Source of the DNA: Eledone cirrhosa | Lineage: Eukaryota | NCBI GenBank assembly: GCA_964016885.1 | Contig: OZ024742.1 | Location: 60,512,001-60,576,000, forward strand | Length of the DNA stretch: 64,000 nt | Direction of reading: 5' to 3' | Shown here: in pieces, positions 471 to 49,140 of the stretch | Layout: every line of letters begins with the position of its first letter | Position numbering within the stretch: the first letter of the stretch is position 1 | Notes under the pieces: generated by a model | What the model was told of the DNA's origin: nothing | Database searches by the model: none | Seen by the model: the letters and a program-made list of their open reading frames with translations, nothing else | Translations under genes and position numbers: made by a program

Positions 471-1213
471 ATGAAGATTCAAATAAAATAAAATGTGTGT
501 GTGCTATAACCATCTCAAAGTCAGAACGATGTTGGATAAAGTGGTAGAAGGAACAAGATGGTAAAACGAAAAACGAAAGATAATCAAATAAAATGTGTGT
601 TATAACAAATCTCTACTTAAATATAAGGCAGTAAAGTGAAGAAAACAGAAAACAAATGAAATATCAAGTAAAATAAAATGTGTGTGTGTTATAAAGATGT
701 TGGCCAAATTAGAAAGGCTGTGTCAGAATCAATCTCTAGGCTATCATGGTGTCTGCTCATCCTGGGTGGGTCCCTATGGCTTGGGGAGAGTTCCCAACCT
801 TGGGGTTGTTTTTGCCCATATAGGTTGAGGGAGATCTGGCCGAGAGGTGTCTACATGTGCTGGGGAAGCCCCTATATCTTGAGGGGAGTTCACATCTCAG
901 TGTGTTGCTACTGTCCATATAGCTTGAGGAAGTCTGCATGTCCCGAGGTGTCTGCATGTCCCGAAGGTGTCTGCATGTCCCGAAGAAGTCGGTTCTGAGG
1001 TTTATCAGGCGGATTCCACCTTTTAGTACCACGAGGGTCTCGTTCAGACATAGTTTGCATATGCCAGCTCCCCCTTTATCGGGTGGTACTTTCCTGATTA
1101 TGGACCAGTTCCTCAGTGAAATAACAACCCAACCAGGAACTGGGCATATCAGAGTATTAACAAAGTTAAACACCTCAACAACATGTGTACTCGTCTCTAC
1201 CACACTAATTCGG

Positions 1214-1268
1214 ATTGCCTGAAGAGGTCACAGCCAAAGATGGCTGTCACCGAAATATATATAGCAGT
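1214..1268 (+). ncRNA. Type I hammerhead ribozyme in PLE pLTR
   Basis: ATTGC-CTGAAGA-ggt c acagcca aaga tggctgt c acc-GAAA TATATA TA-GCAGT. Stems I and II pair; stem III is palindromic. Confidence 0.85.
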
Positions 1269-12559: not shown

Positions 12560-14270
12560 TAAATGAATAAAATTCGAAATATTATTCATAATTATATTAG
12601 TTTTTATTAACTTTTTTTTTCTAAGTCAGATCATTTATACCATTCTAAGTTTGAATGTAGAATTATATTTATTGAAATAAAGTTAACTTTATTTATCTAT
12701 TTACCAAATTTCAGATAATCTTATGAAGCTATTTACCAAACTGAAGATAAAACTATTTAGATTACAACTGTATAAATACATTGACTTTTATATGACTTAC
12801 TTTATATATTTTCCTGTTGTTTACTAAACTTATTTCAGATTTTAAAAAGTATTATGACAACATTCATAATATGTTCCTAGTTCAATTTCTTTTTCCGCTT
12901 TCGGAATTAATACAAGGTTTTCTATTATAGTTGTTAAAATTGTTACCATAGTTAAAATTGTTACGATTATGGTTAGTTGTTATATTATTATTATTATCAA
13001 TGTATTTAATTTTATTTCTATACCCAGCTCTACCTAACGCTTCGTTGTGATAATGTGCTTTTTCATCAAATATATTCTTATTAGCTGAAATTCTCGAAAT
13101 TCGTTCCTGTACAGAGTTCACTATAGTATTTTTACGGATCTGGGGTGATTAGAGTTAAAATTGACGTAGTTTAAGTTCTCATTTAGTTTGTGAAATGGAT
13201 AATGAAGACATGTGTTAAGATTTAGTGTTACGTCTAGAAAGTTAACTATTTTATGGTTATTCTCTATTTCTACTTTTAGAATTAGGTAATTAAAAAATTG
13301 TATAATTTGTTTTCTTTTTCTATTTAGTTCACAGTTATTATTTTCTATAAGTAAAAGCATGTCGTCACGATATAAACCTCCGGTTATCTCAGGTATTTTC
13401 CTATGTAGAGAAGTATTTATAAAGAGGCCCACAAGATCCGTTACCTGAGCGGAATCGGAGGATCCCATAGTTATATCAAAGTTATTATTTCTATCTGCCC
13501 TAGTCCAGAGTTGGTTATTAAATTCTATTAATGTTTTCCGTGCCGATAATATAATGTGCATTTCATTGCTACTTAGGTCTGTATGTTTAAATGCGTAAGT
13601 TAGTGCTTTATTCAGTAGATTAGGAGTGATAGATGAGTAATAGTTAGCAATATCCAACTGGATAAACTTATTATTATAGTTATATCTAATTTCTTTAAAC
13701 CAATCGATAACTTCACTAGTTCCTTTCCATAATTTTAAATAAGATAAATTCTTAATTTGTGGTATTATTCTGTCTAGAATATTTTTGCTAAGTCTGCCAA
13801 GGTCCGATTTAGATGGTGCAATTAATCTGACTGGTAAATCAGTTTCGAAGTTCCTTTTATGATCCTTCATATTAATCTTAGGTTTCCTTGGCGTGAAGGG
13901 TTGTGTCCTATTTCCAATGCCTAGTTCGTGCATTATATAAGAGGCACGTGTATTCAATTTTTCATGGTCGTCTTTATTTGCTACTGTGTATTTCTTCCTT
14001 AATTCCTTTAATATAAGATCGTTATAAATGTCCTTTTGTATTCCGTAAAGATTATTGGTTTTGTAAGATTTGACTAGAATTTTCTCCGTTTTCTCCAAAT
14101 TTTCAATATTATTTTTAATATTTCTTAAGTAATCCTGGCCTTTGAAGTTGTTTTTGAATTTGATGCTTTGGATGATAGATATGATATCATTTTCAAAATC
14201 CATTAGTAGTTTGTAAGGGGGGATTTTTTTTAGATTTGAAGATTTTATCCAGGTTGGAGACATTTTCATT
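12560..14270 (-). mobile_element. Penelope-like element RT region (probably Hydra-like clade), decayed
   Basis: ORF 13121-14269 has RT motifs. The continuation at 12882-13121 (ISRISANKNIFD..YHNEALGRAGY) is the PLE thumb. Same family as 39780-40830. Confidence 0.85.
13121..14269 (-). pseudogene. PLE reverse transcriptase reading frame (382 aa fragment)
   Basis: PVRLIAPSKSDLGRLSK, QLDIANYYSSI, FDITMGSSDSAQVTDLVG, GLYRDDML, VNFLDVTLNL, YVNFNSNHP. Frameshift or stop at the end. Confidence 0.9.
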
Positions 14271-19485: not shown

Positions 19486-19560
<75 letters not shown>

Positions 19561-19565
<5 letters not shown>

Positions 19566-22500
19566 AATATAGACATAGAATATTCGAAAATATTCTGTAT
19601 ATTTATAATAAACATTTTGAAGACCTAATCGCTATAGAATAGAATACGTCACGTATTACAATTAGATTCTCGATAAAAGCAAGGGAAGTAATCTACGCGT
19701 TTCATTCTTATTAGAAATCTTCAGGACTACATATCCAGTGCTTTTATCGAGAATGACACAGCTAGAGACTTATAGAATACTTAGCTGTGTACAGGAACTG
19801 GTTTGAAAGAGCGGTTGCCGGTCCGGCAGAAATTAGAAATTGGAATAAATGCTCTGAAATAGCGATATATATGTGAATATAGACATAGAATATTCGAAAA
19901 TATTCTGTATATTTATAATAAACATTTTGAAGACCTAATCGCTATAGAATAGAATACGTCACGTATTACAATTAGATTCTCGATAAAAGCAAGGGAAGTA
20001 ATCTACGCGTTTCATTCTTATTAGAAATCTTCAGGACTACATATCCAGTGCTTTTATCGAGAATGACACAGCTAGAGACTTATAGAATACTTAGCTGTGT
20101 ACAGGAACTGGTTTGAAAGAGCGGTTGCCGGTCCGGCAGAAATTAGAAATTGGAATAAATGCTCTGAAATAGCGATATATATGTGAATATAGACATAGAA
20201 TATTCGAAAATATTCTGTATATTTATAATAAACATTTTGAAGACCTAATCGCTATAGAATAGAATACGTCACGTATTACAATTAGATTCTCGATAAAAGC
20301 AAGGGAAGTAATCTACGCGTTTCATTCTTATTAGAAATCTTCAGGACTACATATCCAGTGCTTTTATCGAGAATGACACAGCTAGAGACTTATAGAATAC
20401 TTAGCTGTGTACAGGAACTGGTTTGAAAGAGCGGTTGCCGGTCCGGCAGAAATTAGAAATTGGAATAAATGCTCTGAAATAGCGATATATATGTGAATAT
20501 AGACATAGAATATTCGAAAATATTCTGTATATTTATAATAAACATTTTGAAGACCTAATCGCTATAGAATAGAATACGTCACGTATTACAATTAGATTCT
20601 CGATAAAAGCAAGGGAAGTAATCTACGCGTTTCATTCTTATTAGAAATCTTCAGGACTACATATCCAGTGCTTTTATCGAGAATGACACAGCTAGAGACT
20701 TATAGAATACTTAGCTGTGTACAGGAACTGGTTTGAAAGAGCGGTTGCCGGTCCGGCAGAAATTAGAAATTGGAATAAATGCTCTGAAATAGCGATATAT
20801 ATGTGAATATAGATATAGAATATTCGAAAATATTCTGTATATTTATAATAAACATTTTGAAGACCTAATCGCTATAGAATAGAATACGTCACGTATTACA
20901 ATTAGATTCTCGATAAAAGCAAGGGAAGTAATCTACGCGTTTCATTCTTATTAGAAATCTTCAGGACTACATATCCAGTGCTTTTATCGAGAATGACACA
21001 GCTAGAGACTTATAGAATACTTAGCTGTGTACAGGAACTGGTTTGAAAGAGCGGTTGCCGGTCCGGCAGAAATTAGAAATTGGAATAAATGCTCTGAAAT
21101 AGCGATATATATGTGAATATAGACATAGAATATTCGAAAATATTCTGTATATTTATAATAAACATTTTGAAGACCTAATCGCTATAGAATAGAATACGTC
21201 ACGTATTACAATTAGATTCTCGATAAAAGCAAGGGAAGTAATCTACGCGTTTCATTCTTATTAGAAATCTTCAGGACTACATATCCAGTGCTTTTATCGA
21301 GAATGACACAGCTAGAGACTTATAGAATACTTAGCTGTGTACAGGAACTGGTTTGAAAGAGCGGTTGCCGGTCCGGCAGAAATTAGAAATTGGAATAAAT
21401 GCTCTGAAATAGCGATATATATGTGAATATAGACATAGAATATTCGAAAATATTCTGTATATTTATAATAAACATTTTGAAGACCTAATCGCTATAGAAT
21501 AGAATACGTCACGTATTACAATTAGATTCTCGATAAAAGCAAGGGAAGTAATCTACGCGTTTCATTCTTATTAGAAATCTTCAGGACTACATATCCAGTG
21601 CTTTTATCGAGAATGACACAGCTAGAGACTTATAGAATACTTAGCTGTGTACAGGAACTGGTTTGAAAGAGCGGTTGCCGGTCCGGCAGAAATTAGAAAT
21701 TGGAATAAATGCTCTGAAATAGCGATATATATGTGAATATAGACATAGAATATTCGAAAATATTCTGTATATTTATAATAAACATTTTGAAGACCTAATC
21801 GCTATAGAATAGAATACGTCACGTATTACAATTAGATTCTCGATAAAAGCAAGGGAAGTAATCTACGCGTTTCATTCTTATTAGAAATCTTCAGGACTAC
21901 ATATCCAGTGCTTTTATCGAGAATGACACAGCTAGAGACTTATAGAATACTTAGCTGTGTACAGGAACTGGTTTGAAAGAGCGGTTGCCGGTCCGGCAGA
22001 AATTAGAAATTGGAATAAATGCTCTGAAATAGCGATATATATGTGAATATAGACATAGAATATTCGAAAATATTCTGTATATTTATAATAAACATTTTGA
22101 AGACCTAATCGCTATAGAATAGAATACGTCACGTATTACAATTAGATTCTTGATAAAAGCAAGGGAAGTAATCTACGCGTTTCATTCTTATTAGAAATCT
22201 TCAGGACTACATATCCAGTGCTTTTATCGAGAATGACACAGCTAGAGACTTATAGAATACTTAGCTGTGTACAGGAACTGGTTTGAAAGAGCGGTTGCCG
22301 GTCCGGCAGAAATTAGAAATTGGAATAAATGCTCTGAAATAGCGATATATATGTGAATATAGACATAGAATATTCGAAAATATTCTGTATATTTATAATA
22401 AACATTTTGAAGACCTAATCGCTATAGAATAGAATACGTCACGTATTACAATTAGATTCTCGATAAAAGCAAGGGAAGTAATCTACGCGTTTCATTCTTA

Positions 22501-25500
22501 TTAGAAATCTTCAGGACTACATATCCAGTGCTTTTATCGAGAATGACACAGCTAGAGACTTATAGAATACTTAGCTGTGTACAGGAACTGGTTTGAAAGA
22601 GCGGTTGCCGGTCCGGCAGAAATTAGAAATTGGAATAAATGCTCTGAAATAGCGATATATATGTGAATATAGACATAGAATATTCGAAAATATTCTGTAT
22701 ATTTATAATAAACATTTTGAAGACCTAATCGCTATAGAATAGAATACGTCACGTATTACAATTAGATTCTCGATAAAAGCAAGGGAAGTAATCTACGCGT
22801 TTCATTCTTATTAGAAATCTTCAGGACTACATATCCAGTGCTTTTATCGAGAATGACACAGCTAGAGACTTATAGAATACTTAGCTGTGTACAGGAATTG
22901 TTTGAAAGAGCGGTTGCCGGTCCGGCAGAAATTAGAAATTGGAATAAATGCTCTGAAATAGCGATATATATGTGAATATAGACATAGAATATTCGAAAAT
23001 ATTCTGTATATTTATAATAAACATTTTGAAGACCTAATCGCTATAGAATAGAATACGTCACGTATTACAATTAGATTCTCGATAAAAGCAAGGGAAGTAA
23101 TCTACGCGTTTCATTCTTATTAGAAATCTTCAGGACTACATATCCAGTGCTTTTATCGAGAATGACACAGCTAGAGACTTATAGAATACTTAGCTGTGTA
23201 CAGGAACTGGTTTGAAAGAGCGGTTGCCGGTCCGGCAGAAATTAGAAATTGGAATAAATGCTCTGAAATAGCGATATATATGTGAATATAGACATAGAAT
23301 ATTCGAAAATATTCTGTATATTTATAATAAACATTTTGAAGACCTAATCGCTATAGAATAGAATACGTCACGTATTACAATTAGATTCTCGATAAAAGCA
23401 AGGGAAGTAATCTACGCGTTTCATTCTTATTAGAAATCTTCAGGACTACATATCCAGTGCTTTTATCGAGAATGACACAGCTAGAGACTTATAGAATACT
23501 TAGCTGTGTATAGGAGCTGGTTTGAAAGAGCGGTTGCCGGTCCGGCAGAAATTAGAAATTGGAATAAATGCTCTGAAATAGCGATATATATGTGAATATA
23601 GACATAGAATATTCGAAAATATTCTGTATATTTATAATAAACATTTTGAAGACATAATCGCTATAGAATAGAATACGTCACGTATTACAATTAGATTCTC
23701 GATAAAAGCAAGGGAAGTAATCTACGCGTTTCATTCTTATTAGAAATCTTCAGGACTACATATCCAGTGCTTTTATCGAGAATGACACAGCTAGAGACTT
23801 ATAGAATACTTAGCTGTGTACAGGAACTGGTTTGAAAGAGCGGTTGCCGGTCCGGCAGAAATTAGAAATTGGAATAAATGCTCTGAAATAGCGATATATA
23901 TGTGAATATAGACATAGAATATTCGAAAATATTCTGTATATTTATAATAAACATTTTGAAGACCTAATCGCTATAGAATAGAATACGTCACGTATTACAA
24001 TTAGATTCTCGATAAAAGCAAGGGAAGTAATCTACGCGTTTCATTCTTATTAGAAATCTTCAGGACTACATATCCAGTGCTTTTATCGAGAATGACACAG
24101 CTAGAGACTTATAGAATACTTAGCTGTGTACAGGAACTGGTTTGAAAGAGCGGTTGCCGGTCCGGCAGAAATTAGAAATTGGAATAAATGCTCTGAAATA
24201 GCGATATATATGTGAATATAGACATAGAATATTCGAAAATATTCTGTATATTTATAATAAACATTTTGAAGACCTAATCGCTATAGAATAGAATACGTCA
24301 CGTATTACAATTAGATTCTCGATAAAAGCAAGGGAAGTAATCTACGCGTTTCATTCTTATTAGAAATCTTCAGGACTACATATCCAGTGCTTTTATCGAG
24401 AATGACACAGCTAGAGACTTATAGAATACTTAGCTGTGTACAGGAACTGGTTTGAAAGAGCGGTTGCCGGTCCGGCAGAAATTAGAAATTGGAATAAATG
24501 CTCTGAAATAGCGATATATATGTGAATATAGACATAGAATATTCGAAAATATTCTGTATATTTATAATAAACATTTTGAAGACCTAATCGCTATAGAATA
24601 GAATACGTCACGTATTACAATTAGATTCTCGATAAAAGCAAGGGAAGTAATCTACGCGTTTCATTCTTATTAGAAATCTTCAGGACTACATATCCAGTGC
24701 TTTTATCGAGAATGACACAGCTAGAGACTTATAGAATACTTAGCTGTGTACAGGAACTGGTTTGAAAGAGCGGTTGCCGGTCCGGCAGAAATTAGAAATT
24801 GGAATAAATGCTCTGAAATAGCGATATATATGTGAATATAGACATAGAATATTCGAAAATATTCTGTATATTTATAATAAACATTTTGAAGACCTAATCG
24901 CTATAGAATAGAATACGTCACGTATTACAATTAGATTCTCGATAAAAGCAAGGGAAGTAATCTACGCGTTTCATTCTTATTAGAAATCTTCAGGACTACA
25001 TATCCAGTGCTTTTATCGAGAATGACACAGCTAGAGACTTATAGAATACTTAGCTGTGTACAGGAACTGGTTTGAAAGAGCGGTTGCCGGTCCGGCAGAA
25101 ATTAGAAATTGGAATAAATGCTCTGAAATAGCGATATATATGTGAATATAGACATAGAATATTCGAAAATATTCTGTATATTTATAATAAACATTTTGAA
25201 GACCTAATCGCTATAGAATAGAATACGTCACGTATTACAATTAGATTCTCGATAAAAGCAAGGGAAGTAATCTACGCGTTTCATTCTTATTAGAAATCTT
25301 CAGGACTACATATCCAGTGCTTTTATCGAGAATGACACAGCTAGAGACTTATAGAATACTTAGCTGTGTACAGGAACTGGTTTGAAAGAGCGGTTGCCGG
25401 TCCGGCAGAAATTAGAAATTGGAATAAATGCTCTGAAATAGCGATATATATGTGAATATAGACATAGAATATTCGAAAATATTCTGTATATTTATAATAA

Positions 25501-28500
25501 ACATTTTGAAGACCTAATCGCTATAGAATAGAATACGTCACGTATTACAATTAGATTCTCGATAAAAGCAAGGGAAGTAATCTACGCGTTTCATTCTTAT
25601 TAGAAATCTTCAGGACTACATATCCAGTGCTTTTATCGAGAATGACACAGCTAGAGACTTATAGAATACTTAGCTGTGTACAGGAGCTGGTTTGAAAGAG
25701 CGGTTGCCGGTCCGGCAGAAATTAGAAATTGGAATAAATGCTCTGAAATAGCGATATATATGTGAATATAGACATAGAATATTCGAAAATATTCTGTATA
25801 TTTATAATAAACATTTTGAAGACCTAATCGCTATAGAATAGAATACGTCACGTATTACAATTAGATTCTCGATAAAAGCAAGGGAAGTAATCTACGCGTT
25901 TCATTCTTATTAGAAATCTTCAGGACTACATATCCAGTGCTTTTATCGAGAATGACACAGCTAGAGACTTATAGAATACTTAGCTGTGTACAGGAACTGG
26001 TTTGAAAGAGCGGTTGCCGGTCCGGCAGAAATTAGAAATTGGAATAAATGCTCTGAAATAGCGATATATATGTGAATATAGACATAGAATATTCGAAAAT
26101 ATTCTGTATATTTATAATAAACATTTTGAAGACCTAATCGCTATAGAATAGAATACGTCACGTATTACAATTAGATTCTCGATAAAAGCAAGGGAAGTAA
26201 TCTACGCGTTTCATTCTTATTAGAAATCTTCAGGACTACATATCCAGTGCTTTTATCGAGAATGACACAGCTAGAGACTTATAGAATACTTAGCTGTGTA
26301 CAGGAACTGGTTTGAAAGAGCGGTTGCCGGTCCGGCAGAAATTAGAAATTGGAATAAATGCTCTGAAATAGCGATATATATGTGAATATAGACATAGAAT
26401 ATTCGAAAATATTCTGTATATTTATAATAAACATTTTGAAGACCTAATCGCTATAGAATAGAATACGTCACGTATTACAATTAGATTCTCGATAAAAGCA
26501 AGGGAAGTAATCTACGCGTTTCATTCTTATTAGAAATCTTCAGGACTACATATCCAGTGCTTTTATCGAGAATGACACAGCTAGAGACTTATAGAATACT
26601 TAGCTGTGTACAGGAACTGGTTTGAAAGAGCGGTTGCCGGTCCGGCAGAAATTAGAAATTGGAATAAATGCTCTGAAATAGCGATATATATGTGAATATA
26701 GACATAGAATATTCGAAAATATTCTGTATATTTATAATAAACATTTTGAAGACCTAATCGCTATAGAATAGAATACGTCACGTATTACAATTAGATTCTC
26801 GATAAAAGCAAGGGAAGTAATCTACGCGTTTCATTCTTATTAGAAATCTTCAGGACTACATATCCAGTGCTTTTATCGAGAATGACACAGCTAGAGACTT
26901 ATAGAATACTTAGCTGTGTACAGGAACTGGTTTGAAAGAGCGGTTGCCGGTCCGGCAGAAATTAGAAATTGGAATAAATGCTCTGAAATAGCGATATATA
27001 TGTGAATATAGACATAGAATATTCGAAAATATTCTGTATATTTATAATAAACATTTTGAAGACCTAATCGCTATAGAATAGAATACGTCACGTATTACAA
27101 TTAGATTCTCGATAAAAGCAAGGGAAGTAATCTACGCGTTTCATTCTTATTAGAAATCTTCAGGACTACATATCCAGTGCTTTTATCGAGAATGACACAG
27201 CTAGAGACTTATAGAATACTTAGCTGTGTACAGGAACTGGTTTGAAAGAGCGGTTGCCGGTCCGGCAGAAATTAGAAATTGGAATAAATGCTCTGAAATA
27301 GCGATATATATGTGAATATAGACATAGAATATTCGAAAATATTCTGTATATTTATAATAAACATTTTGAAGACCTAATCGCTATAGAATAGAATACGTCA
27401 CGTATTACAATTAGATTCTCGATAAAAGCAAGGGAAGTAATCTACGCGTTTCATTCTTATTAGAAATCTTCAGGACTACATATCCAGTGCTTTTATCGAG
27501 AATGACACAGCTAGAGACTTATAGAATACTTAGCTGTGTACAGGAACTGGTTTGAAAGAGCGGTTGCCGGTCCGGCAGAAATTAGAAATTGGAATAAATG
27601 CTCTGAAATAGCGATATATATGTGAATATAGACATAGAATATTCGAAAATATTCTGTATATTTATAATAAACATTTTGAAGACCTAATCGCTATAGAATA
27701 GAATACGTCACGTATTACAATTAGATTCTTGATAAAAGCAAGGGAAGTAATCTACGCGTTTCATTCTTATTAGAAATCTTCAGGACTACATATCCAGTGC
27801 TTTTATCGAGAATGACACAGCTAGAGACTTATAGAATACTTAGCTGTGTACAGGAACTGGTTTGAAAGAGCGGTTGCCGGTCCGGCAGAAATTAGAAATT
27901 GGAATAAATGCTCTGAAATAGCGATATATATGTGAATATAGACATAGAATATTCGAAAATATTCTGTATATTTATAATAAACATTTTGAAGACCTAATCG
28001 CTATAGAATAGAATACGTCACGTATTACAATTAGATTCTCGATAAAAGCAAGGGAAGTAATCTACGCGTTTCATTCTTATTAGAAATCTTCAGGACTACA
28101 TATCCAGTGCTTTTATCGAGAATGACACAGCTAGAGACTTATAGAATACTTAGCTGTGTACAGGAACTGGTTTGAAAGAGCGGTTGCCGGTCCGGCAGAA
28201 ATTAGAAATTGGAATAAATGCTCTGAAATAGCGATATATATGTGAATATAGACATAGAATATTCGAAAATATTCTGTATATTTATAATAAACATTTTGAA
28301 GACCTAATCGCTATAGAATAGAATACGTCACGTATTACAATTAGATTCTCGATAAAAGCAAGGGAAGTAATCTACGCGTTTCATTCTTATTAGAAATCTT
28401 CAGGACTACATATCCAGTGCTTTTATCGAGAATGACACAGCTAGAGACTTATAGAATACTTAGCTGTGTACAGGAACTGGTTTGAAAGAGCGGTTGCCGG

Positions 28501-31500
28501 TCCGGCAGAAATTAGAAATTGGAATAAATGCTCTGAAATAGCGATATATATGTGAATATAGACATAGAATATTCGAAAATATTCTGTATATTTATAATAA
28601 ACATTTTGAAGACCTAATCGCTATAGAATAGAATACGTCACGTATTACAATTAGATTCTCGATAAAAGCAAGGGAAGTAATCTACGCGTTTCATTCTTAT
28701 TAGAAATCTTCAGGACTACATATCCAGTGCTTTTATCGAGAATGACACAGCTAGAGACTTATAGAATACTTAGCTGTGTACAGGAACTGGTTTGAAAGAG
28801 CGGTTGCCGGTCCGGCAGAAATTAGAAATTGGAATAAATGCTCTGAAATAGCGATATATATGTGAATATAGACATAGAATATTCGAAAATATTCTGTATA
28901 TTTATAATAAACATTTTGAAGACCTAATCGCTATAGAATAGAATACGTCACGTATTACAATTAGATTCTCGATAAAAGCAAGGGAAGTAATCTACGCGTT
29001 TCATTCTTATTAGAAATCTTCAGGACTACATATCCAGTGCTTTTATCGAGAATGACACAGCTAGAGACTTATAGAATACTTAGCTGTGTATAGGAGCTGG
29101 TTTGAAAGAGCGGTTGCCGGTCCGGCAGAAATTAGAAATTGGAATAAATGCTCTGAAATAGCGATATATATGTGAATATAGACATAGAATATTCGAAAAT
29201 ATTCTGTATATTTATAATAAACATTTTGAAGACATAATCGCTATAGAATAGAATACGTCACGTATTACAATTAGATTCTCGATAAAAGCAAGGGAAGTAA
29301 TCTACGCGTTTCATTCTTATTAGAAATCTTCAGGACTACATATCCAGTGCTTTTATCGAGAATGACACAGCTAGAGACTTATAGAATACTTAGCTGTGTA
29401 CAGGAACTGGTTTGAAAGAGCGGTTGCCGGTCCGGCAGAAATTAGAAATTGGAATAAATGCTCTGAAATAGCGATATATATGTGAATATAGACATAGAAT
29501 ATTCGAAAATATTCTGTATATTTATAATAAACATTTTGAAGACCTAATCGCTATAGAATAGAATACGTCACGTATTACAATTAGATTCTCGATAAAAGCA
29601 AGGGAAGTAATCTACGCGTTTCATTCTTATTAGAAATCTTCAGGACTACATATCCAGTGCTTTTATCGAGAATGACACAGCTAGAGACTTATAGAATACT
29701 TAGCTGTGTACAGGAACTGGTTTGAAAGAGCGGTTGCCGGTCCGGCAGAAATTAGAAATTGGAATAAATGCTCTGAAATAGCGATATATATGTGAATATA
29801 GACATAGAATATTCGAAAATATTCTGTATATTTATAATAAACATTTTGAAGACCTAATCGCTATAGAATAGAATACGTCACGTATTACAATTAGATTCTC
29901 GATAAAAGCAAGGGAAGTAATCTACGCGTTTCATTCTTATTAGAAATCTTCAGGACTACATATCCAGTGCTTTTATCGAGAATGACACAGCTAGAGACTT
30001 ATAGAATACTTAGCTGTGTACAGGAACTGGTTTGAAAGAGCGGTTGCCGGTCCGGCAGAAATTAGAAATTGGAATAAATGCTCTGAAATAGCGATATATA
30101 TGTGAATATAGACATAGAATATTCGAAAATATTCTGTATATTTATAATAAACATTTTGAAGACCTAATCGCTATAGAATAGAATACGTCACGTATTACAA
30201 TTAGATTCTCGATAAAAGCAAGGGAAGTAATCTACGCGTTTCATTCTTATTAGAAATCTTCAGGACTACATATCCAGTGCTTTTATCGAGAATGACACAG
30301 CTAGAGACTTATAGAATACTTAGCTGTGTACAGGAACTGGTTTGAAAGAGCGGTTGCCGGTCCGGCAGAAATTAGAAATTGGAATAAATGCTCTGAAATA
30401 GCGATATATATGTGAATATAGACATAGAATATTCGAAAATATTCTGTATATTTATAATAAACATTTTGAAGACCTAATCGCTATAGAATAGAATACGTCA
30501 CGTATTACAATTAGATTCTCGATAAAAGCAAGGGAAGTAATCTACGCGTTTCATTCTTATTAGAAATCTTCAGGACTACATATCCAGTGCTTTTATCGAG
30601 AATGACACAGCTAGAGACTTATAGAATACTTAGCTGTGTACAGGAACTGGTTTGAAAGAGCGGTTGCCGGTCCGGCAGAAATTAGAAATTGGAATAAATG
30701 CTCTGAAATAGCGATATATATGTGAATATAGACATAGAATATTCGAAAATATTCTGTATATTTATAATAAACATTTTGAAGACCTAATCGCTATAGAATA
30801 GAATACGTCACGTATTACAATTAGATTCTCGATAAAAGCAAGGGAAGTAATCTACGCGTTTCATTCTTATTAGAAATCTTCAGGACTACATATCCAGTGC
30901 TTTTATCGAGAATGACACAGCTAGAGACTTATAGAATACTTAGCTGTGTACAGGAACTGGTTTGAAAGAGCGGTTGCCGGTCCGGCAGAAATTAGAAATT
31001 GGAATAAATGCTCTGAAATAGCGATATATATGTGAATATAGACATAGAATATTCGAAAATATTCTGTATATTTATAATAAACATTTTGAAGACCTAATCG
31101 CTATAGAATAGAATACGTCACGTATTACAATTAGATTCTCGATAAAAGCAAGGGAAGTAATCTACGCGTTTCATTCTTATTAGAAATCTTCAGGACTACA
31201 TATCCAGTGCTTTTATCGAGAATGACACAGCTAGAGACTTATAGAATACTTAGCTGTGTACAGGAGCTGGTTTGAAAGAGCGGTTGCCGGTCCGGCAGAA
31301 ATTAGAAATTGGAATAAATGCTCTGAAATAGCGATATATATGTGAATATAGACATAGAATATTCGAAAATATTCTGTATATTTATAATAAACATTTTGAA
31401 GACCTAATCGCTATAGAATAGAATACGTCACGTATTACAATTAGATTCTCGATAAAAGCAAGGGAAGTAATCTACGCGTTTCATTCTTATTAGAAATCTT

Positions 31501-34500
31501 CAGGACTACATATCCAGTGCTTTTATCGAGAATGACACAGCTAGAGACTTATAGAATACTTAGCTGTGTACAGGAACTGGTTTGAAAGAGCGGTTGCCGG
31601 TCCGGCAGAAATTAGAAATTGGAATAAATGCTCTGAAATAGCGATATATATGTGAATATAGACATAGAATATTCGAAAATATTCTGTATATTTATAATAA
31701 ACATTTTGAAGACCTAATCGCTATAGAATAGAATACGTCACGTATTACAATTAGATTCTCGATAAAAGCAAGGGAAGTAATCTACGCGTTTCATTCTTAT
31801 TAGAAATCTTCAGGACTACATATCCAGTGCTTTTATCGAGAATGACACAGCTAGAGACTTATAGAATACTTAGCTGTGTACAGGAACTGGTTTGAAAGAG
31901 CGGTTGCCGGTCCGGCAGAAATTAGAAATTGGAATAAATGCTCTGAAATAGCGATATATATGTGAATATAGACATAGAATATTCGAAAATATTCTGTATA
32001 TTTATAATAAACATTTTGAAGACCTAATCGCTATAGAATAGAATACGTCACGTATTACAATTAGATTCTCGATAAAAGCAAGGGAAGTAATCTACGCGTT
32101 TCATTCTTATTAGAAATCTTCAGGACTACATATCCAGTGCTTTTATCGAGAATGACACAGCTAGAGACTTATAGAATACTTAGCTGTGTACAGGAACTGG
32201 TTTGAAAGAGCGGTTGCCGGTCCGGCAGAAATTAGAAATTGGAATAAATGCTCTGAAATAGCGATATATATGTGAATATAGACATAGAATATTCGAAAAT
32301 ATTCTGTATATTTATAATAAACATTTTGAAGACCTAATCGCTATAGAATAGAATACGTCACGTATTACAATTAGATTCTCGATAAAAGCAAGGGAAGTAA
32401 TCTACGCGTTTCATTCTTATTAGAAATCTTCAGGACTACATATCCAGTGCTTTTATCGAGAATGACACAGCTAGAGACTTATAGAATACTTAGCTGTGTA
32501 CAGGAACTGGTTTGAAAGAGCGGTTGCCGGTCCGGCAGAAATTAGAAATTGGAATAAATGCTCTGAAATAGCGATATATATGTGAATATAGACATAGAAT
32601 ATTCGAAAATATTCTGTATATTTATAATAAACATTTTGAAGACCTAATCGCTATAGAATAGAATACGTCACGTATTACAATTAGATTCTCGATAAAAGCA
32701 AGGGAAGTAATCTACGCGTTTCATTCTTATTAGAAATCTTCAGGACTACATATCCAGTGCTTTTATCGAGAATGACACAGCTAGAGACTTATAGAATACT
32801 TAGCTGTGTACAGGAACTGGTTTGAAAGAGCGGTTGCCGGTCCGGCAGAAATTAGAAATTGGAATAAATGCTCTGAAATAGCGATATATATGTGAATATA
32901 GACATAGAATATTCGAAAATATTCTGTATATTTATAATAAACATTTTGAAGACCTAATCGCTATAGAATAGAATACGTCACGTATTACAATTAGATTCTC
33001 GATAAAAGCAAGGGAAGTAATCTACGCGTTTCATTCTTATTAGAAATCTTCAGGACTACATATCCAGTGCTTTTATCGAGAATGACACAGCTAGAGACTT
33101 ATAGAATACTTAGCTGTGTACAGGAACTGGTTTGAAAGAGCGGTTGCCGGTCCGGCAGAAATTAGAAATTGGAATAAATGCTCTGAAATAGCGATATATA
33201 TGTGAATATAGACATAGAATATTCGAAAATATTCTGTATATTTATAATAAACATTTTGAAGACCTAATCGCTATAGAATAGAATACGTCACGTATTACAA
33301 TTAGATTCTCGATAAAAGCAAGGGAAGTAATCTACGCGTTTCATTCTTATTAGAAATCTTCAGGACTACATATCCAGTGCTTTTATCGAGAATGACACAG
33401 CTAGAGACTTATAGAATACTTAGCTGTGTACAGGAACTGGTTTGAAAGAGCGGTTGCCGGTCCGGCAGAAATTAGAAATTGGAATAAATGCTCTGAAATA
33501 GCGATATATATGTGAATATAGACATAGAATATTCGAAAATATTCTGTATATTTATAATAAACATTTTGAAGACCTAATCGCTATAGAATAGAATACGTCA
33601 CGTATTACAATTAGATTCTCGATAAAAGCAAGGGAAGTAATCTACGCGTTTCATTCTTATTAGAAATCTTCAGGACTACATATCCAGTGCTTTTATCGAG
33701 AATGACACAGCTAGAGACTTATAGAATACTTAGCTGTGTACAGGAGCTGGTTTGAAAGAGCGGTTGCCGGTCCGGCAGAAATTAGAAATTGGAATAAATG
33801 CTCTGAAATAGCGATATATATGTGAATATAGACATAGAATATTCGAAAATATTCTGTATATTTATAATAAACATTTTGAAGACCTAATCGCTATAGAATA
33901 GAATACGTCACGTATTACAATTAGATTCTCGATAAAAGCAAGGGAAGTAATCTACGCGTTTCATTCTTATTAGAAATCTTCAGGACTACATATCCAGTGC
34001 TTTTATCGAGAATGACACAGCTAGAGACTTATAGAATACTTAGCTGTGTACAGGAACTGGTTTGAAAGAGCGGTTGCCGGTCCGGCAGAAATTAGAAATT
34101 GGAATAAATGCTCTGAAATAGCGATATATATGTGAATATAGACATAGAATATTCGAAAATATTCTGTATATTTATAATAAACATTTTGAAGACCTAATCG
34201 CTATAGAATAGAATACGTCACGTATTACAATTAGATTCTCGATAAAAGCAAGGGAAGTAATCTACGCGTTTCATTCTTATTAGAAATCTTCAGGACTACA
34301 TATCCAGTGCTTTTATCGAGAATGACACAGCTAGAGACTTATAGAATACTTAGCTGTGTACAGGAACTGGTTTGAAAGAGCGGTTGCCGGTCCGGCAGAA
34401 ATTAGAAATTGGAATAAATGCTCTGAAATAGCGATATATATGTGAATATAGACATAGAATATTCGAAAATATTCTGTATATTTATAATAAACATTTTGAA

Positions 34501-36483
34501 GACCTAATCGCTATAGAATAGAATACGTCACGTATTACAATTAGATTCTCGATAAAAGCAAGGGAAGTAATCTACGCGTTTCATTCTTATTAGAAATCTT
34601 CAGGACTACATATCCAGTGCTTTTATCGAGAATGACACAGCTAGAGACTTATAGAATACTTAGCTGTGTACAGGAACTGGTTTGAAAGAGCGGTTGCCGG
34701 TCCGGCAGAAATTAGAAATTGGAATAAATGCTCTGAAATAGCGATATATATGTGAATATAGACATAGAATATTCGAAAATATTCTGTATATTTATAATAA
34801 ACATTTTGAAGACCTAATCGCTATAGAATAGAATACGTCACGTATTACAATTAGATTCTCGATAAAAGCAAGGGAAGTAATCTACGCGTTTCATTCTTAT
34901 TAGAAATCTTCAGGACTACATATCCAGTGCTTTTATCGAGAATGACACAGCTAGAGACTTATAGAATACTTAGCTGTGTACAGGAACTGGTTTGAAAGAG
35001 CGGTTGCCGGTCCGGCAGAAATTAGAAATTGGAATAAATGCTCTGAAATAGCGATATATATGTGAATATAGACATAGAATATTCGAAAATATTCTGTATA
35101 TTTATAATAAACATTTTGAAGACCTAATCGCTATAGAATAGAATACGTCACGTATTACAATTAGATTCTCGATAAAAGCAAGGGAAGTAATCTACGCGTT
35201 TCATTCTTATTAGAAATCTTCAGGACTACATATCCAGTGCTTTTATCGAGAATGACACAGCTAGAGACTTATAGAATACTTAGCTGTGTACAGGAACTGG
35301 TTTGAAAGAGCGGTTGCCGGTCCGGCAGAAATTAGAAATTGGAATAAATGCTCTGAAATAGCGATATATATGTGAATATAGACATAGAATATTCGAAAAT
35401 ATTCTGTATATTTATAATAAACATTTTGAAGACCTAATCGCTATAGAATAGAATACGTCACGTATTACAATTAGATTCTCGATAAAAGCAAGGGAAGTAA
35501 TCTACGCGTTTCATTCTTATTAGAAATCTTCAGGACTACATATCCAGTGCTTTTATCGAGAATGACACAGCTAGAGACTTATAGAATACTTAGCTGTGTA
35601 CAGGAACTGGTTTGAAAGAGCGGTTGCCGGTCCGGCAGAAATTAGAAATTGGAATAAATGCTCTGAAATAGCGATATATATGTGAATATAGACATAGAAT
35701 ATTCGAAAATATTCTGTATATTTATAATAAACATTTTGAAGACCTAATCGCTATAGAATAGAATACGTCACGTATTACAATTAGATTCTCGATAAAAGCA
35801 AGGGAAGTAATCTACGCGTTTCATTCTTATTAGAAATCTTCAGGACTACATATCCAGTGCTTTTATCGAGAATGACACAGCTAGAGACTTATAGAATACT
35901 TAGCTGTGTACAGGAACTGGTTTGAAAGAGCGGTTGCCGGTCCGGCAGAAATTAGAAATTGGAATAAATGCTCTGAAATAGCGATATATATGTGAATATA
36001 GACATAGAATATTCGAAAATATTCTGTATATTTATAATAAACATTTTGAAGACCTAATCGCTATAGAATAGAATACGTCACGTATTACAATTAGATTCTC
36101 GATAAAAGCAAGGGAAGTAATCTACGCGTTTCATTCTTATTAGAAATCTTCAGGACTACATATCCAGTGCTTTTATCGAGAATGACACAGCTAGAGACTT
36201 ATAGAATACTTAGCTGTGTACAGGAACTGGTTTGAAAGAGCGGTTGCCGGTCCGGCAGAAATTAGAAATTGGAATAAATGCTCTGAAATAGCGATATATA
36301 TGTGAATATAGACATAGAATATTCGAAAATATTCTGTATATTTATAATAAACATTTTGAAGACCTAATCGCTATAGAATAGAATACGTCACGTATTACAA
36401 TTAGATTCTCGATAAAAGCAAGGGAAGTAATCTACGCGTTTCATTCTTATTAGAAATCTTCAGGACTACATATCCAGTGCTTT
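19561..36483 (-). repeat. Tandem array of a 310-bp unit (54 full plus 1 partial), hammerhead-bearing satellite / non-LTR retrozyme
   Basis: Unit starts at 19561, 19871, 20181 and so on. One 309-bp unit (1-bp deletion near 22898); last start at 36300. Units differ at only a handful of positions. Each has an HHR on minus. Both ends abut (TA)n. Confidence 0.95.
19688..19730 (-). ncRNA. Type I minimal hammerhead ribozyme, first of 55 copies (last at 36427-36469)
   Basis: Minus: GUAGUC-CUGAAGA-U UUCU AAUA AGAA U-GAA ACGCGU A^GAUUAC. 6-bp stem I, 4-bp stem II, palindromic stem III. Predicted cleavage between 19694 and 19693. Stem I is extended by GGA/UCC and a perfect 16-bp IR (19666-19681/19739-19754). 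Confidence 0.9.
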
Positions 36484-36536
36484 ATATATATAAACAATTG
36501 TTCTCGGTATGGTGAACTAACTGTTGTGATACTAAT

Positions 36537-36605
<69 letters not shown>

Positions 36606-36632
36606 GGAAGTAGTATCACAACAGTTAGTTCA

Positions 36633-36688
36633 CCATACCGAGAACAATTGTTTCACCTTAGCGGATCTTCAGCTCGGACTGGTCATGG
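36633..36688 (-). ncRNA. Type I hammerhead ribozyme in inverted pLTR (GUU triplet)
   Basis: Minus: ccatg accagt CCGAG-CTGAAGA-t cc gctaa gg t-GAA ACAATTGT T-CTCGG tatgg. Confidence 0.8.
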
Positions 36689-38104
36689 ATAAACGGAACA
36701 GGAAGAACAACCGTACGTACGCGCATGCGCATATCCAGGCACTTCACCCAAGCGATACAAAGCCACGGGCGAAAGGTGTAAGGGAGATAACTGCGAAAGT
36801 TCTGAAAAGATGTTCGAGTTGAATAGAAAATTAGAATGTTGTTGTTATTCAATCCAGAGCTTTGTAGTTATGCAAGAGGTGTTTCTAGACATGTGGACAA
36901 CGGGAGAAGATTTCATATCTTGAATTTAGGCAATCGGTATTGCGTATTCTCCTTAGAATATTTATTATTATATTATTATATTATTATATTTCTTCAATAA
37001 ACAGTCCGCAAGACGGATTGCCCGCCCCTTGCGTATGGCTTGGACTTGGTGATGACTTTCCATTGAATGGAATAGTCTATACCTGAGTCCTTGGGGGACC
37101 ATACGAGTCTCACGAGTTTCGTGGATGATCGTTTTTCCGGATACCTAAAGGTCGACTGATGGTTCAGGAAGCGTTCCTTAAATCGGCCCTCCGCTATACT
37201 CACATAGCATTTGACCTCCGGCGTCAGCTAACAGCGGCTTCTCACAACCAAATACTTACTCCCCCACTAACAACAACAGCAATAAAAAAAGAAATCGTAA
37301 CATTAGACAAACTATCTTGTTCTCTCCTTCCTTCTCAACCAACGTTAAAACTAATGTAGGAAAAAGATTTTTAGCCCTCTTAGATACACACTTTCCCATA
37401 CGTCATAAATACCGCTCCATCTTTAACAGACACAGAGTAAAACAAGGGTATCCCTGTGATATGAAGGCCCACATAACCAACAATCCTAAGAGAGGCACCC
37501 CACCAGGATGCTCTTGCCGAAAGCCAGAAGATTGTCCCCTTCAACAGCAATGCAACGTACCCGCTGTAGTTTATGAAGCTGTGGTTTCCAACCGACCAAA
37601 CCGACCACAGGAGGTCAAATACTCTGTGGGTATGGCAGAGGGCCGATTTAAGGAACACTTCCTGAACCATCAGTCGACCTTTAGGTACCCGGACAAACGA
37701 TCATCCACGAAACTCGCGAGCCATGTATGGTCCCTCAAGGACTCAGGTGTAGATTACTCCATTCAATAGAAAGCCATCACTAAGTCCAAGCCATACGCAA
37801 GGGGCAATCGGTCTTGTGGACTGTGTATTGAAGAAAGGATAAATATTCTAAGGAGATTACGCAATAGCGATTGCTTAAATTCAAGATTTGAAATCTTCTC
37901 ACGTTGTCCACATGTCTGGAAACACCTCTTGCATAACTACAAAGCTCCGGATTGAATAACAACATTCTAATCAACTCGAACATCTTTTCCGGACTTTCGC
38001 AATTACCTCCTTTATGCATTTCGCCCGTGGCTTTGTATCGCTTGGGTGAAATGACCGTTTCTGTGTATGCGCGATCGTACGGTTGTTCTTCTTGTTCCGT
38101 TTAA

Positions 38105-38160
38105 CCATGACCAGTCCGAGCTGAAGATCCGCTAAGATGAAACAATTATTTTGGGTATGG
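38105..38160 (+). ncRNA. Mutated copy of the same PLE hammerhead in the 3' pLTR
   Basis: ccgag-CTGAAGA-tccgctaagat-GAAACAATTATT-ttggg. Stems II, III and I carry substitutions. Confidence 0.65.
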
Positions 38161-38247
38161 AAAACTAACTGTTGTGTTACTACTTCTACTAAAACTCGTC
38201 CCATGGACTGAGTTCTCTACCACTACGGATATTACCTTCCAGTGTTC

Positions 38248-38345
<98 letters not shown>

Positions 38346-38392
38346 CAATATTAATAAATGGAGAATATCTTTACAAAGCCATATTTATTTTT

Positions 38393-38451
38393 ATTTTATT
38401 ATACGTATTTCACGGGTACTAATATTTAAGTACGCTTTCATCAGATAAAAT
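38393..38451 (-). ncRNA. Type I hammerhead ribozyme, 3' pLTR
   Basis: Minus: ATTTTAT-CTGATGA-aagcgtact..agtacccgt-GAAA TACGTA TA-ATAAAAT. Base of stem II is imperfect. Confidence 0.75.
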
Positions 38452-39730: not shown

Positions 39731-40832
39731 ATGATATGAAATATTTCTTCAGTACAAAGATGACAAATTCGTGAAAATGCTGAATTTTGGTAAACCGGAG
39801 CGTTTGTAATTTTTCTCCAAGAGATTGAATAGTCAGTGTTATTGTCCTTTAAAGACCGAACTAGTTGTGATACTGAGGTTGAGAATTTTTTAAACGATCG
39901 TTTAAAAGTATATTTGTAATTATTTCAACGCTCCTTAAATTTTGAAGAAGTTGCTCCTATATAGTTATACAGCCTATCCCTAGTTTTAATGGTGCATTTA
40001 TATACTAAATTTCTATCTAGGCAATTATTCTGTAGTGGGCAAAAGATGTTATTCCTGCAATTACATTTTCTTATATTGTTATTTGAAGATACCATATTAT
40101 TATTCATGTACACGCTATTATTATTATACCTAATGCTATTAATTATATTGTTATTATTATTTGGGTTTACTTCAGTTTGGTTTAATTTTAAATTTCTATT
40201 ATTAATTCTAGTAATATTATGGGCTACATTCATAGTTGTAGAGTAAGAGAGCTTGAGTGTAAGTCTGTTAGAAATGGAGTGGTAATTGTGGGACTTCGGA
40301 AAATATTTATCTAGAGCTTTAAAGAATTGGTATGCTAAAGGTGTCTTAATTCCTAAGGATATTGGAGGTGAACACCAAATTATACTTTTAGTTCTGACTT
40401 ATTTATTTAATTTATTATTTTGGTTAAGTGGTTTATTATTATAATATGTTTTAGGAGGTTGGTTTTTACTATTCCTATCTATGTAATTAATTTTATTAGT
40501 GTATCCAGCTCTGTGTAGACCGTCATTACAATATTCTACTTTGTTATCAAATATATTTTTTATTAGCTGAGAGTCTAGAGATTCTTTGCTGGACACTATT
40601 GACTATAGCTTTTTTAACGTTTCTAGGGTCGTTTGAGTAGAAGCTGACATAATTTAGGTTTTCATTAATCTTATAGAATAGGCCGGACTTAAGGTTTAAA
40701 GTAACATCTAAGAAATTAACAATTTTATTATCATTTTCTATTTCTAACTTAAGGTCGTAATTATTAAAGTAGTCTATAATAATTTTCTTTTTTCTGTTAA
40801 GTTCACTATCGTTATGTTCATCAAGTACGATA

Positions 40833-47190: not shown

Positions 47191-47461
47191 ATAATATTCG
47201 AAAAACTCAGATTTACATTTCTTTTAATCAGCCATATAGAACGATAAACCTACTTAACAGTTATTTGACTATGGCAAATCCGGCCATTAATCGCTCGTAT
47301 ACATAAATCTAACTGTCCTATCTTCTGATATACAAATCTGGCTGATCAGTGGGTTTCCTAATATGCAGATCTGACTGATCAGACAGTCTCGTAACATGCA
47401 AATCAGGCAGATCAGTCACTGTAATTCCAAAAAATATGATATATGTTAATATATATATATA

Positions 47462-47529
<68 letters not shown>

Positions 47530-47531
<2 letters not shown>

Positions 47532-49140
47532 CACAAACTCATCACAACATCACAACCACAAGCGCATACAAACGCGCAGCAGCAAAACCCCATTGGGCAT
47601 ATATCACAACCCACTTATAACAGGGTACTAAATAGGGATGTAAAAGCTGCACAAAATAGCGCCTCAAACTGCAACTGTCACCTCCCAGATAGGTGCCCAT
47701 TGGCGAACAGATGTCTCGATTCGAGCCTGGTGTACATGTGCACTATCATCTCGGGCAACTCCACCTGGAATTACATAGGATCCACCGCGGGTTCTTTTAA
47801 GAAAAGATGGTATGTGCACAGGCACTCAATGAAAGACCGAGCACTTATGGGTTCCACCACCCTCGCCAGAAAAATATGGGAATTGAAGGACAGCAACACT
47901 AGCTACACTATCAACTGGTCGAAGTTGTCGGCTGCTAAAACCTATAGTACAGGGATGTCCTATTGCGGGCTGTGTGATCTTGAGCTATTGTATATCCTTA
48001 GAAATGTTAAAAGGCTACTTAATAAAAAGTTAGAAAGATCTATCTTCTGCAGACATAGAATAGCCACTAAATTCATAAGATTCAAACCTCCGTGAATCGA
48101 ACCAACATAACATAGCTTTAAATTAGGATACCTACTACCCACAGAAATATATTCATTAAGTATACTATTTCCTTCACAAGTCTATACCACACAATTGTCT
48201 GTAAATACCTCATCTACCAACAATCTTACTCCTTCTCAGCTGCTGCAATCATTTGATCCTAGATCCTAGTTTTTCTCATTTCACTACTACAATGTTACTT
48301 TACCTTCTTTTTGCCATAATTACAATTAGCACGCTTTTCTCTTTGCATGTATGTATATTTTTGTACGAGTGTATATTGATGTGTATGTATGTGTCTATGT
48401 ACACATATATGTGTATATATATTTATATATATATGTGTGTGTGTGTGTGCGTAGATATATGCGTATATTGATTCGTTAACCTCTGTATTAACTCTACAAC
48501 TATTGAGCTTTGACAGTGGTCCCACTCATGTATACTGTTGAAGATGAAGAGAAAGACTGTAAAAACTAGCTTAACTTTATAATTTAAAATTGATACACAC
48601 TACGATACTTTTTGCCTTATGACAGCTGGTTTTCACGCCGTAACATTAGATACATTATATACCCCCCACCTAAGTAATGTCAGGGTCTCCTTAAATAGTT
48701 TATTGATAGCATTGTTGTAATAATTGTTGTTGTTATTGTTCTAATTGAATGCCATAACTACTCCATATTTTCTTTTCTTTTCTTGCCTGTGTATTTTCTT
48801 CATTCTCGCATGCTCCGAAGATCTGACTGGTTATAATTCTGTATTGGCGATCGAGTGACGCAAAATTAGGCGGATAGCGATCTCTAGACATACCAGTTCA
48901 GTGAAACAAATGTAAGCTATGTGATTAAAAACTTTTTTGTATAGCAAACCATGTAAACCTTCTTTCCTGATTTATTATTACTCCAAGTGTTTACAACATA
49001 GGAATTACAGCATACCCGCAGCATCACAATGAAAACGCCTTGTTGAGTCAAACCAAGCCAAGCGTTAATATCATCCACTACCTGGAATACCATAACTGGA
49101 CTTCACCTAAGTGGACTGCATTTAACTATTATTTGTTAAT
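47530..49140 (+). mobile_element. PLE 3' fragment (Hydra-like GIY-YIG plus tail) inserted in (TA)n
   Basis: NCNCHLPDRCPLANRCLDSSLVYMCTI..NYIGSTAGSFKKRWYVH..LARKIWELKD..YCGLCDLE..CRH; stop at 48095. Confidence 0.9.
48812..48917 (+). ncRNA. Variant hammerhead (CCGAAGA core, long stem II)
   Basis: gct-CCGAAGA-t ctg actggt..accagt t cag t-GAAAC AAAT GTA-agc. Confidence 0.6.

What the first reader, a model, noticed from the sequence alone, without database searches (positions are those of the whole stretch)
19561..19870. Almost the whole 310-nt unit is built from hairpins (viroid-like fold)
Seen in one unit: AGAATATT-cgaa-AATATTCT; AATACGT-c-ACGTATT; a 16-bp ATTCTCGATAAAAGCA/TGCTTTTATCGAGAAT helix clamping the ribozyme; ACACAGCTA..TAGCTGTGT; TGCCGG-t-CCGGCA; and a long-range ATCGCTAT/ATAGCGAT pair. 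Stem I has a UAU/U internal loop that could contact the AAUA loop of stem II, as in extended hammerheads. Inference: selection for a compact branched RNA, as expected of a stable circular RNA and not of a neutral satellite.
Basis: partly seen in the sequence, partly recalled or inferred. Interest (0 to 1): 0.7.

Follow-up and report, generated by a model that had tools for sequence, protein, structure and literature searches.

The report
Covarying fold of a hammerhead retrozyme
This 310-base tandem repeat carries a hammerhead-ribozyme motif, and several of its predicted helices are kept by matched mutations in older sister families, so it is likely a small self-cutting circular-RNA jumping element that Penelope-type enzymes probably copy into the genome, though under half of it is confidently predicted to pair.

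Summary
Partly confirmed. The listed inverted repeats are real, but they were read on the wrong strand. The type I hammerhead lies on the minus strand of a 54.6-copy, 310-bp array. The circle folds better than shuffles (z -4.4, 0 of 200). Its paired fraction (58%) does not exceed shuffles (55%), and one 16-bp helix supplies nearly all the excess stability, so 'almost all hairpins, viroid-like' is overstated. Selection on RNA structure is supported, though. Sister families at 58-66% identity keep the clamp (8 of 16 pairs compensatory in one), stem II, the UUCG hairpin, the core 3-8 pair (C-G to U-A) and a palindromic stem III. Two hairpins keep only their position. This is a new metazoan non-LTR retrozyme. 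Of 22 sites, 17 are head-to-head arms in (TA)n with one short and one long 3' end, a Penelope-like footprint. The stretch around those two ends is more conserved than the ribozyme and is probably the reverse-transcriptase loading site. Expression, cleavage and circularity are untested. This scan noted the two-armed layout before, on other DNA of this genome.

The parts
19555..36483 (-). Retrozyme array, 310 bp x 54.6, a single arm. The RNA 3' end is at the left (monomer 132-139, in (TA)n). The 5' end is at the right (monomer 257-260), with TAT shared with the flank.
19694..20003 (-). One cleavage-to-cleavage monomer (predicted circle). Monomer position 1 = 20003, equivalent to 19693 in the unit to its left.
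19684..19736 (-). Type I hammerhead: stem I (6 bp, UAU/U loop, 3 bp), core CUGAAGA 19724-19718, U.U-closed 4-bp stem II with AAUA loop, GAAA, palindromic stem III ACGCGU 19700-19695, predicted cut after GUA between 19694 and 19693
   Evidence: core covariation
19666..19754 (-). 16-bp clamp helix (19754-19739 with 19681-19666) extending stem I; main source of stability; 8 compensatory pairs against family C, 3 against family B
19577..19596 (-). 8-bp hairpin with UUCG loop; 1 compensatory pair in family B and 2 in family C, whose loop reads GCAA
19643..19657 (-). 6-bp hairpin; families B and C have a hairpin of other sequence and register at the same place
19756..19790 (-). 9-bp stem; not conserved in this register (48% of cells paired), but its apical sequence (monomer 226-235) is invariant in A, B, C
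19804..19883 (-). Conserved module (monomer 121-200; 60 of 80 positions invariant in A, B, C): helices 59-66/138-145, 149-153/192-196 and hairpin 176-188. It holds both insertion 3' ends (monomer 132-139 = 19872-19865; 161-172 = 19843-19832). Inferred reverse-transcriptase start region.
19486..19562 (.). (TA)n target, left flank
36492..36540 (+). 49-nt 3'-end fragment of a Penelope-like element, followed by (TA)32; probably an older, separate insertion into the same microsatellite
36607..38260 (.). Truncated head-to-head Penelope-like element (minus arm 36607-37219, plus arm 37215-38260) with endonuclease-like C-terminus, own hammerhead motif and Hydra-type cysteine motifs; a comparison, not shown to be the helper

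Best explanation
The unit is a new metazoan non-LTR retrozyme: a non-coding repeat with a hammerhead motif on the minus strand, whose multimeric transcript is predicted to cut itself into 310-nt monomers that likely circularise and are probably copied back into (TA)n microsatellites by a Penelope-like reverse transcriptase-endonuclease. The fold is modular, not a uniform viroid rod. (1) A ribozyme arm: hammerhead plus 16-bp clamp. The clamp holds the two cut ends together (inferred aid to ligation). The weak palindromic stem III would favour cutting as a dimer in multimers and spare the monomer circle (inferred from known dimeric hammerheads). (2) A sequence-conserved module with two mostly unpaired U/A-rich stretches, where the two insertion ends fall (shown); inferred to be the internal start sites of reverse transcription. 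(3) Replaceable hairpins. At most insertions both strands of the cut target were likely primed on one template, one at each start site, and each enzyme ran round it several times, which gives head-to-head multimer arms. The array in this window is a single arm later enlarged at DNA level.
For: Hammerhead descriptor met in 10 of 10 A, 22 of 29 B and 15 of 20 C copies. Core positions 3/8 are C-G in 10 of 10 A and U-A in 29 of 29 B and 20 of 20 C, a variant known from PLE hammerheads. Stem III is a different palindrome in each family. Clamp: 8 compensatory and 0 broken of 16 against C; random best-of-9 registers reach 14 or more pairs in 12 of 5000. Structure on 30 copies: 75% of cells paired vs 35-46% when slid; covariation score 0.21 vs 0.06-0.10. 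The ribozyme strand has the lower z in 6 of 6 B/C copies. 17 of 22 family-A sites are head-to-head, and 17 of 17 have one end at 139 and one at 161-172, in (TA)n. The two arms are identical in 14 of 17 loci vs 23 of 272 between-locus pairs. The neighbouring PLE family has two ends of the same kind (18 at 970-974, 19 at 1038-1046). A PLE enzyme starts internally at two sites and extends both target strands in vitro (PMC11167929).
Against: No RNA run is on record: transcription, cleavage and circularity are unshown, and only 1 of 9 frog retrozyme dimers cleaved in vitro. Rfam finds no hammerhead here at gathering or at E<=10. The MFE prefers an alternative UUUC/GAAA pairing (P 0.79) over stem II (P about 0.16). 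Covariation rests on three lineages; the count of doubly changed pairs does not beat the column shuffle (135 of 500); the raw A-B column tally keeps only 14 of 28 changed pairs vs 31% null. The strand advantage is absent in both A copies tested and in 2 of 5 D copies. The helper is not identified: the adjacent PLE family is old (median 90% between copies, 0 of 435 pairs >=97%), and no BLAST hit of it fell on retrozyme sequence. No A-to-G excess (2 of 41 sporadic changes).
Confidence: 0.8

Rival explanations
1. Same element and helper, but the template is a linear multimeric transcript of a source array (cut slowly or not at all), not a circle; the fold serves the ribozyme and enzyme binding, not circle stability.
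For: In vitro the PLE enzyme used unprocessed linear RNA and did not need hammerhead cleavage. Source arrays are nearly homogeneous. No RNA circle was seen.
Against: Locus-private variants are fixed in every unit of a locus (17 of 17 units in L045, 55 of 55 here, both arms of L042 and L009), some of them pair-breaking, which fits one monomer copied repeatedly. The ribozyme covaries across families. Junctions of the two arms do not fall at the second start site, as twin priming on one linear RNA would give (expectation recalled from the L1 model).
Confidence: 0.12
2. The conserved module is a DNA-level element (internal promoter or endonuclease site) and its helices are incidental; only the ribozyme arm is selected as RNA.
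For: Helices 59-66/138-145 and 149-153/192-196 are sequence-invariant, so they show no covariation.
Against: Both insertion 3' ends lie inside it in families A, B and C. The neighbouring 98-117 hairpin covaries, and 179 C>U gives a U.G pair on the ribozyme strand.
Confidence: 0.25
3. A neutral satellite whose inverted repeats arose by DNA-level processes.
For: 6 of 50 other tiles fold as well. Paired fraction is ordinary. The array shows an 18-unit duplication.
Against: Compensatory changes include a tertiary core pair that is no palindrome in DNA. G.U-type changes favour one strand. Copies are dispersed on 15 contigs with fixed ends.
Confidence: 0.02
4. Endogenised copy of an infectious viroid-like RNA that replicates RNA-to-RNA.
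For: Size, a hammerhead, and one 310-nt circular contig in each of three runs under three other organism codes.
Against: The only CUGANGA core is on one strand. Four families of different ages sit in this genome with PLE footprints. Collapsed tandem DNA gives the same circular contig, and the run types are unknown.
Confidence: 0.04

Closest known systems
Metazoan non-LTR retrozymes (Cervera and de la Pena 2020, PMC7229834; Li, Clavereau, Pollet 2026, 10.64898/2026.07.22.740005)
   Same: Type I hammerhead in each tandem unit, 310 nt, about 33% GC, no LTRs, predicted self-paired circle, coexistence with PLEs. The U.U base of stem II and the weak palindromic stem III match the two axolotl motifs.
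   Different: The parts of these papers that I read describe no head-to-head arms, fixed paired 3' ends, (TA)n targeting or conserved start module. No sequence likeness to the adjacent PLE's terminal repeat was found, unlike 24 of 57 frog families. Expression and cleavage are untested here.
Penelope-like elements, Hydra clade (Craig et al. 2021, PMC8557442) and Poseidon PAc mechanism (Frangieh et al. 2024, PMC11167929)
   Same: Inverted 5'-truncated arms, a roughly 30-nt 'tail' at one end only, (TA)n targets, two internal start sites, hammerhead motif.
   Different: The unit encodes no protein, is multimeric in both arms, and shows a strict pairing of one short with one long end; the in vitro study saw no start-site difference between strands.
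Hammerhead viroids (Avsunviroidae; properties recalled, not tested)
   Same: Size and a branched predicted fold with a hammerhead.
   Different: Genomic DNA form; ribozyme on one strand only; paired fraction no higher than shuffles.

Membership tests
Metazoan non-LTR retrozyme | Type I hammerhead with intact core in consecutive tandem units | tested here: met
   Core and stems by inspection and descriptor; none of the unit variants falls in the core. Rfam models give no hit.
Metazoan non-LTR retrozyme | Unit 150-450 bp, GC below 50%, tandem, no LTR structure | tested here: met
   310 bp, about 33% GC, 54.6 copies
Metazoan non-LTR retrozyme | Non-coding | tested here: met
   No frame of 150 aa or more in the array; shorter frames not examined
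Metazoan non-LTR retrozyme | Dispersed copies showing mobility | tested here: met
   22 sites on 15 contigs, a lower bound
Metazoan non-LTR retrozyme | Predicted stable self-paired circle | tested here: met
   z -4.4, 0 of 200, but driven by one helix
Metazoan non-LTR retrozyme | Expressed as linear and circular RNA; self-cleaves | not testable with these tools
   No RNA holder listed; contigs cannot show it
Metazoan non-LTR retrozyme | Target-site duplication longer than 4 bp when present | tested here: inconclusive
   Flanks are (TA)n
PLE-mobilised element | Inverted truncated arms with tail at one end | tested here: met
   17 of 17 two-armed loci
PLE-mobilised element | Sequence shared with a PLE terminal repeat | tested here: inconclusive
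   No BLAST match to the one PLE family compared; other PLE families of the genome not compared
Hydra-clade PLE (neighbouring element) | C-terminal endonuclease with CxCx5C linker, CxxC and CxH; (TA)n target; hammerhead | tested here: met
   Motifs read in a 585-aa relative against the paper's description. Pfam gave no hit; no tree built.
Hammerhead viroid | No DNA form; ribozymes in both polarities | tested here: not met
   Genomic arrays; core on one strand only

The most novel reading that the evidence does not exclude
The circle carries a dedicated 80-nt structured loading site, more conserved than its ribozyme across sister families, on which a dimeric Hydra-type Penelope enzyme starts at two fixed points about 30 nt apart, one for each strand of the cut (TA)n target, and runs round one RNA circle twice over: a natural rolling-circle, double-primed insertion system with a definable minimal cis element.
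Probability: 0.4. Interest if true: 0.75.

Novelty: new member of a known kind. Interest (0 to 1): 0.5.

Why it matters
Self-paired retrozyme circles are known, so the fold alone is not news. What this adds is an evolutionary test, from sister families of different ages in one genome, of which helices matter, and a map of the two insertion ends onto that structure. How animal retrozymes are reverse-transcribed and by which helper is proposed but left open in the papers read. The module and the one-short-one-long end rule give specific in vitro predictions, and would define a small RNA handle for templated multimer insertion.

Tried and rejected
Rfam: 0 hits at gathering over the window; at E<=10 over 35900-38400, 14 hits, all below gathering, none a hammerhead, all on or across AT-rich simple repeats. 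A striking 'exactly one unit per locus has U at monomer 93' was rejected: the unit lies anywhere in the arm, and my query carried this rare variant, so it is an ascertainment effect; the apparent junction hot spot at 92-93 goes with it. Co-insertion of the array with the adjacent PLE fragment was rejected: ages differ, a (TA) remnant separates them, and two family-D cases (L136, L142) are also separated by microsatellite. A-to-I editing scars: none (2 of 41). Expression: no RNA holder listed. Runs X4, X5, X6 each give one 340-nt wrap-around contig, X1 looks genomic; DNA versus RNA stays open. RNAalifold on the sequence alignment recovered only 33 pairs and missed the clamp, because family C is out of register by 2. 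The pattern-based end count for B and C is noisy (15 of 18 short+long) and is used only as a rough guide. The 467-nt family does not share the module. Search for a young helper: longest open frame 722 aa among 150 scored hits of the old family; not followed. Pfam did not recognise the PLE proteins. Searches for print precedent: retrozyme + inverted + target-primed + rolling circle gave 0 papers; searches listed nothing further on this point. Supplements of the papers were not seen and may hold such cases.

Full report
What is there. The interval is the first unit of a 310-bp array of 54.6 copies, 19555-36483. Of 55 units, 43 are identical. Four variant patterns recur 18 units apart (units 9/27, 13/31, 14/32, 20/38), which points to a later duplication at DNA level. 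The window lies in a 3.0-Gb assembly; earlier scan notes call it a cephalopod, which I did not check. The only CUGANGA core is on the minus strand. I number the monomer from the predicted cut after GUA (position 1 = 19693).

The fold. All quoted inverted repeats exist. As a circle the ribozyme strand gives -65.9 kcal/mol against -47.4+-4.2 for 200 dinucleotide shuffles (z -4.39, none as low); the plus strand gives z -4.96. But the paired fraction is 58% against 55+-3.6% (56 of 200 shuffles reach it) and the centroid pairs 45%. Scrambling one arm of the 16-bp clamp takes z to -1.0; no other arm takes it above -2.9. Six of 50 control tiles of the window fold as well, five with microsatellite. 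So the energy signal is real but narrow, and 'almost the whole unit is hairpins' fails. Stem I (P 0.96) and the clamp (P 0.95) form freely. Canonical stem II (P about 0.16) competes with a UUUC/GAAA pairing (P 0.79); the program cannot score the hammerhead core, so this says little about activity.

Covariation. Searches of the genome gave sister families B (29 copies used, 90% alike), C (20 copies, 96.5% alike) and D (20 loci, older). A-B identity is 66%, A-C 58%. Core positions 3 and 8 are C-G in 10 of 10 A and U-A in 29 of 29 B and 20 of 20 C, the covariation reported for schistosome PLE hammerheads (PMC4209133, passages). Stem II has 3 compensatory pairs of 4 in B. Stem III is a different palindrome in A, B (two forms), C, D and the neighbouring PLE; intact palindromes were found in 10 of 10, 14 of 22, 9 of 15, 4 of 9 and 19 of 22 motifs (two of the nine D-locus motifs belong to adjacent PLE pieces). 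That is the known sign of dimeric hammerheads. The clamp, taken without gaps, has 8 compensatory and 8 unchanged pairs in C, and 3 compensatory, 3 G.U and 1 broken end pair in B; a best-of-9-registers control reaches 14 or more pairs in 12 of 5000. The 98-117 hairpin has 1 and 2 compensatory pairs, its loop going UUCG to AUCA to GCAA.

Against this: hairpins 37-51 and 214-248 do not survive in A's register (32% and 48% of cells paired), though B and C fold hairpins at about the same places. Helices 59-66/138-145 and 149-153/192-196 are nearly invariant and so uninformative. For A versus B, changed pairs are kept in 14 of 28 on raw columns (null 31%), in 15 of 26 with the gapless clamp and without the weak 92-95 helix (P 0.005), and in 15 of 17 after also dropping the two hairpins post hoc (P 2e-6). 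On 30 of the 59 copies, 75% of cells pair against 35-46% for slid partners, but the number of doubly changed pairs does not beat the shuffle (135 of 500), and only three lineages contribute. The ribozyme strand has the lower z in 6 of 6 B/C copies, 3 of 5 D copies and 0 of 2 A copies. Within family A, 14 of 20 lineage-fixed variants are unpaired; the six seen in three or more loci are unpaired (5) or keep the pair (1); three pair-breaking ones are private.

How it spreads. I resolved 22 family-A sites on 15 contigs, a lower bound from a 40-candidate search biased to my query. Seventeen are head-to-head multimer arms with RNA 3' ends outward in (TA)n; in all 17 one end is at 139 (132-139 by microhomology) and the other at 161-172. 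Four, including this window, are single arms; one is an amplified cluster. Arms of one locus are identical in 14 of 17 cases against 23 of 272 between loci (11 junction or ascertained positions left out). Private variants run through all units of a locus. B and C show the same two ends. The adjacent PLE family behaves alike: 18 short and 19 long ends; 7 of 8 inverted loci with both outer ends visible have one of each, and L059 ends internally. A 585-aa relative carries the cysteine motifs described for the Hydra clade, which targets (TA)n. Inverted arms and a 30-40-bp tail at one end are PLE hallmarks (PMC8557442, passages and section 11). A purified PLE enzyme nicks and extends both strands, starts internally at two sites that bound the tail, and is predicted to be a dimer (PMC11167929, parts 1-2 of 4). 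That adjacent family is too old to be the proven helper of family A.

The link between fold and mechanism. Invariant positions across A, B and C number 60 of 80 in monomer 121-200 but 27 of 70 around the ribozyme (261-20). Both ends fall in this module: the long end in a stretch predicted mostly unpaired, the short end at the weakly paired junction before helix 138-145. Family D shares the module; an unrelated 467-nt family does not. I infer that it is the enzyme's loading and start site; a promoter role is the main rival.

Comparison. The element meets every testable feature of metazoan non-LTR retrozymes (PMC7229834, parts 2-4 of 6; preprint 10.64898/2026.07.22.740005, parts 1-3 of 5; PMC7761336, passages), for which a self-paired circle is already described and PLE help is proposed but not shown. 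The two-armed, two-ended layout was not in what I read or in searches; supplements were not seen. Eight earlier notes of this scan were listed for this genome, seven of which report two-armed or back-to-back retrozyme arrays; they are not independent support. Shown: sequence, covariation, insertion anatomy. Inferred: transcription, cleavage, circularisation, helper identity, function of the module. Verdict: a real, selected RNA structure in a new member of a known class; interest 0.5.

Noticed in passing
window 19561-36483: Variants recur 18 units apart (units 9/27, 13/31, 14/32, 20/38): a 5.6-kb block duplication after insertion, or an assembly effect.
   Followed up: partly
window 36492-36655: Two PLE 3'-end copies face each other across (TA)32, forming a long inverted repeat that draws spurious microRNA-family hits.
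   Followed up: partly
window 757-1227, 13121-14269, 39925-40398, 47379-48095, 57295-58086, 62696-63994: Many further open frames that look like Penelope-like reverse transcriptase or endonuclease pieces (by eye); a protein search with the adjacent element gave 44,650 first-look candidates genome-wide.
   Followed up: no
L013-L026 (G000:C14, 25.20-25.26 Mb): Family-A copies amplified as a higher-order cluster with an internal rearranged piece and (TA)n spacers.
   Followed up: partly
L081-L108 vs window 36492-36540: The long end of family B (TGATACTAATT..CTA) resembles the short end of the adjacent PLE fragment over about 14 nt; possibly a shared start motif, possibly chance in AT-rich DNA.
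   Followed up: no
L165:51-9901: Head-to-head 467-bp arrays and a 468-bp array with hammerhead motifs whose stem III is again a palindrome (ACUAGU); no module shared with family A.
   Followed up: partly
runs X4, X5, X6: Each holds one wrap-around 340-nt contig of the unit under a different organism code; circle or collapsed tandem DNA unknown.
   Followed up: partly
L031, L034, L035, L036: Several other hammerhead-like motifs of unrelated families lie within a few kb of these loci.
   Followed up: no
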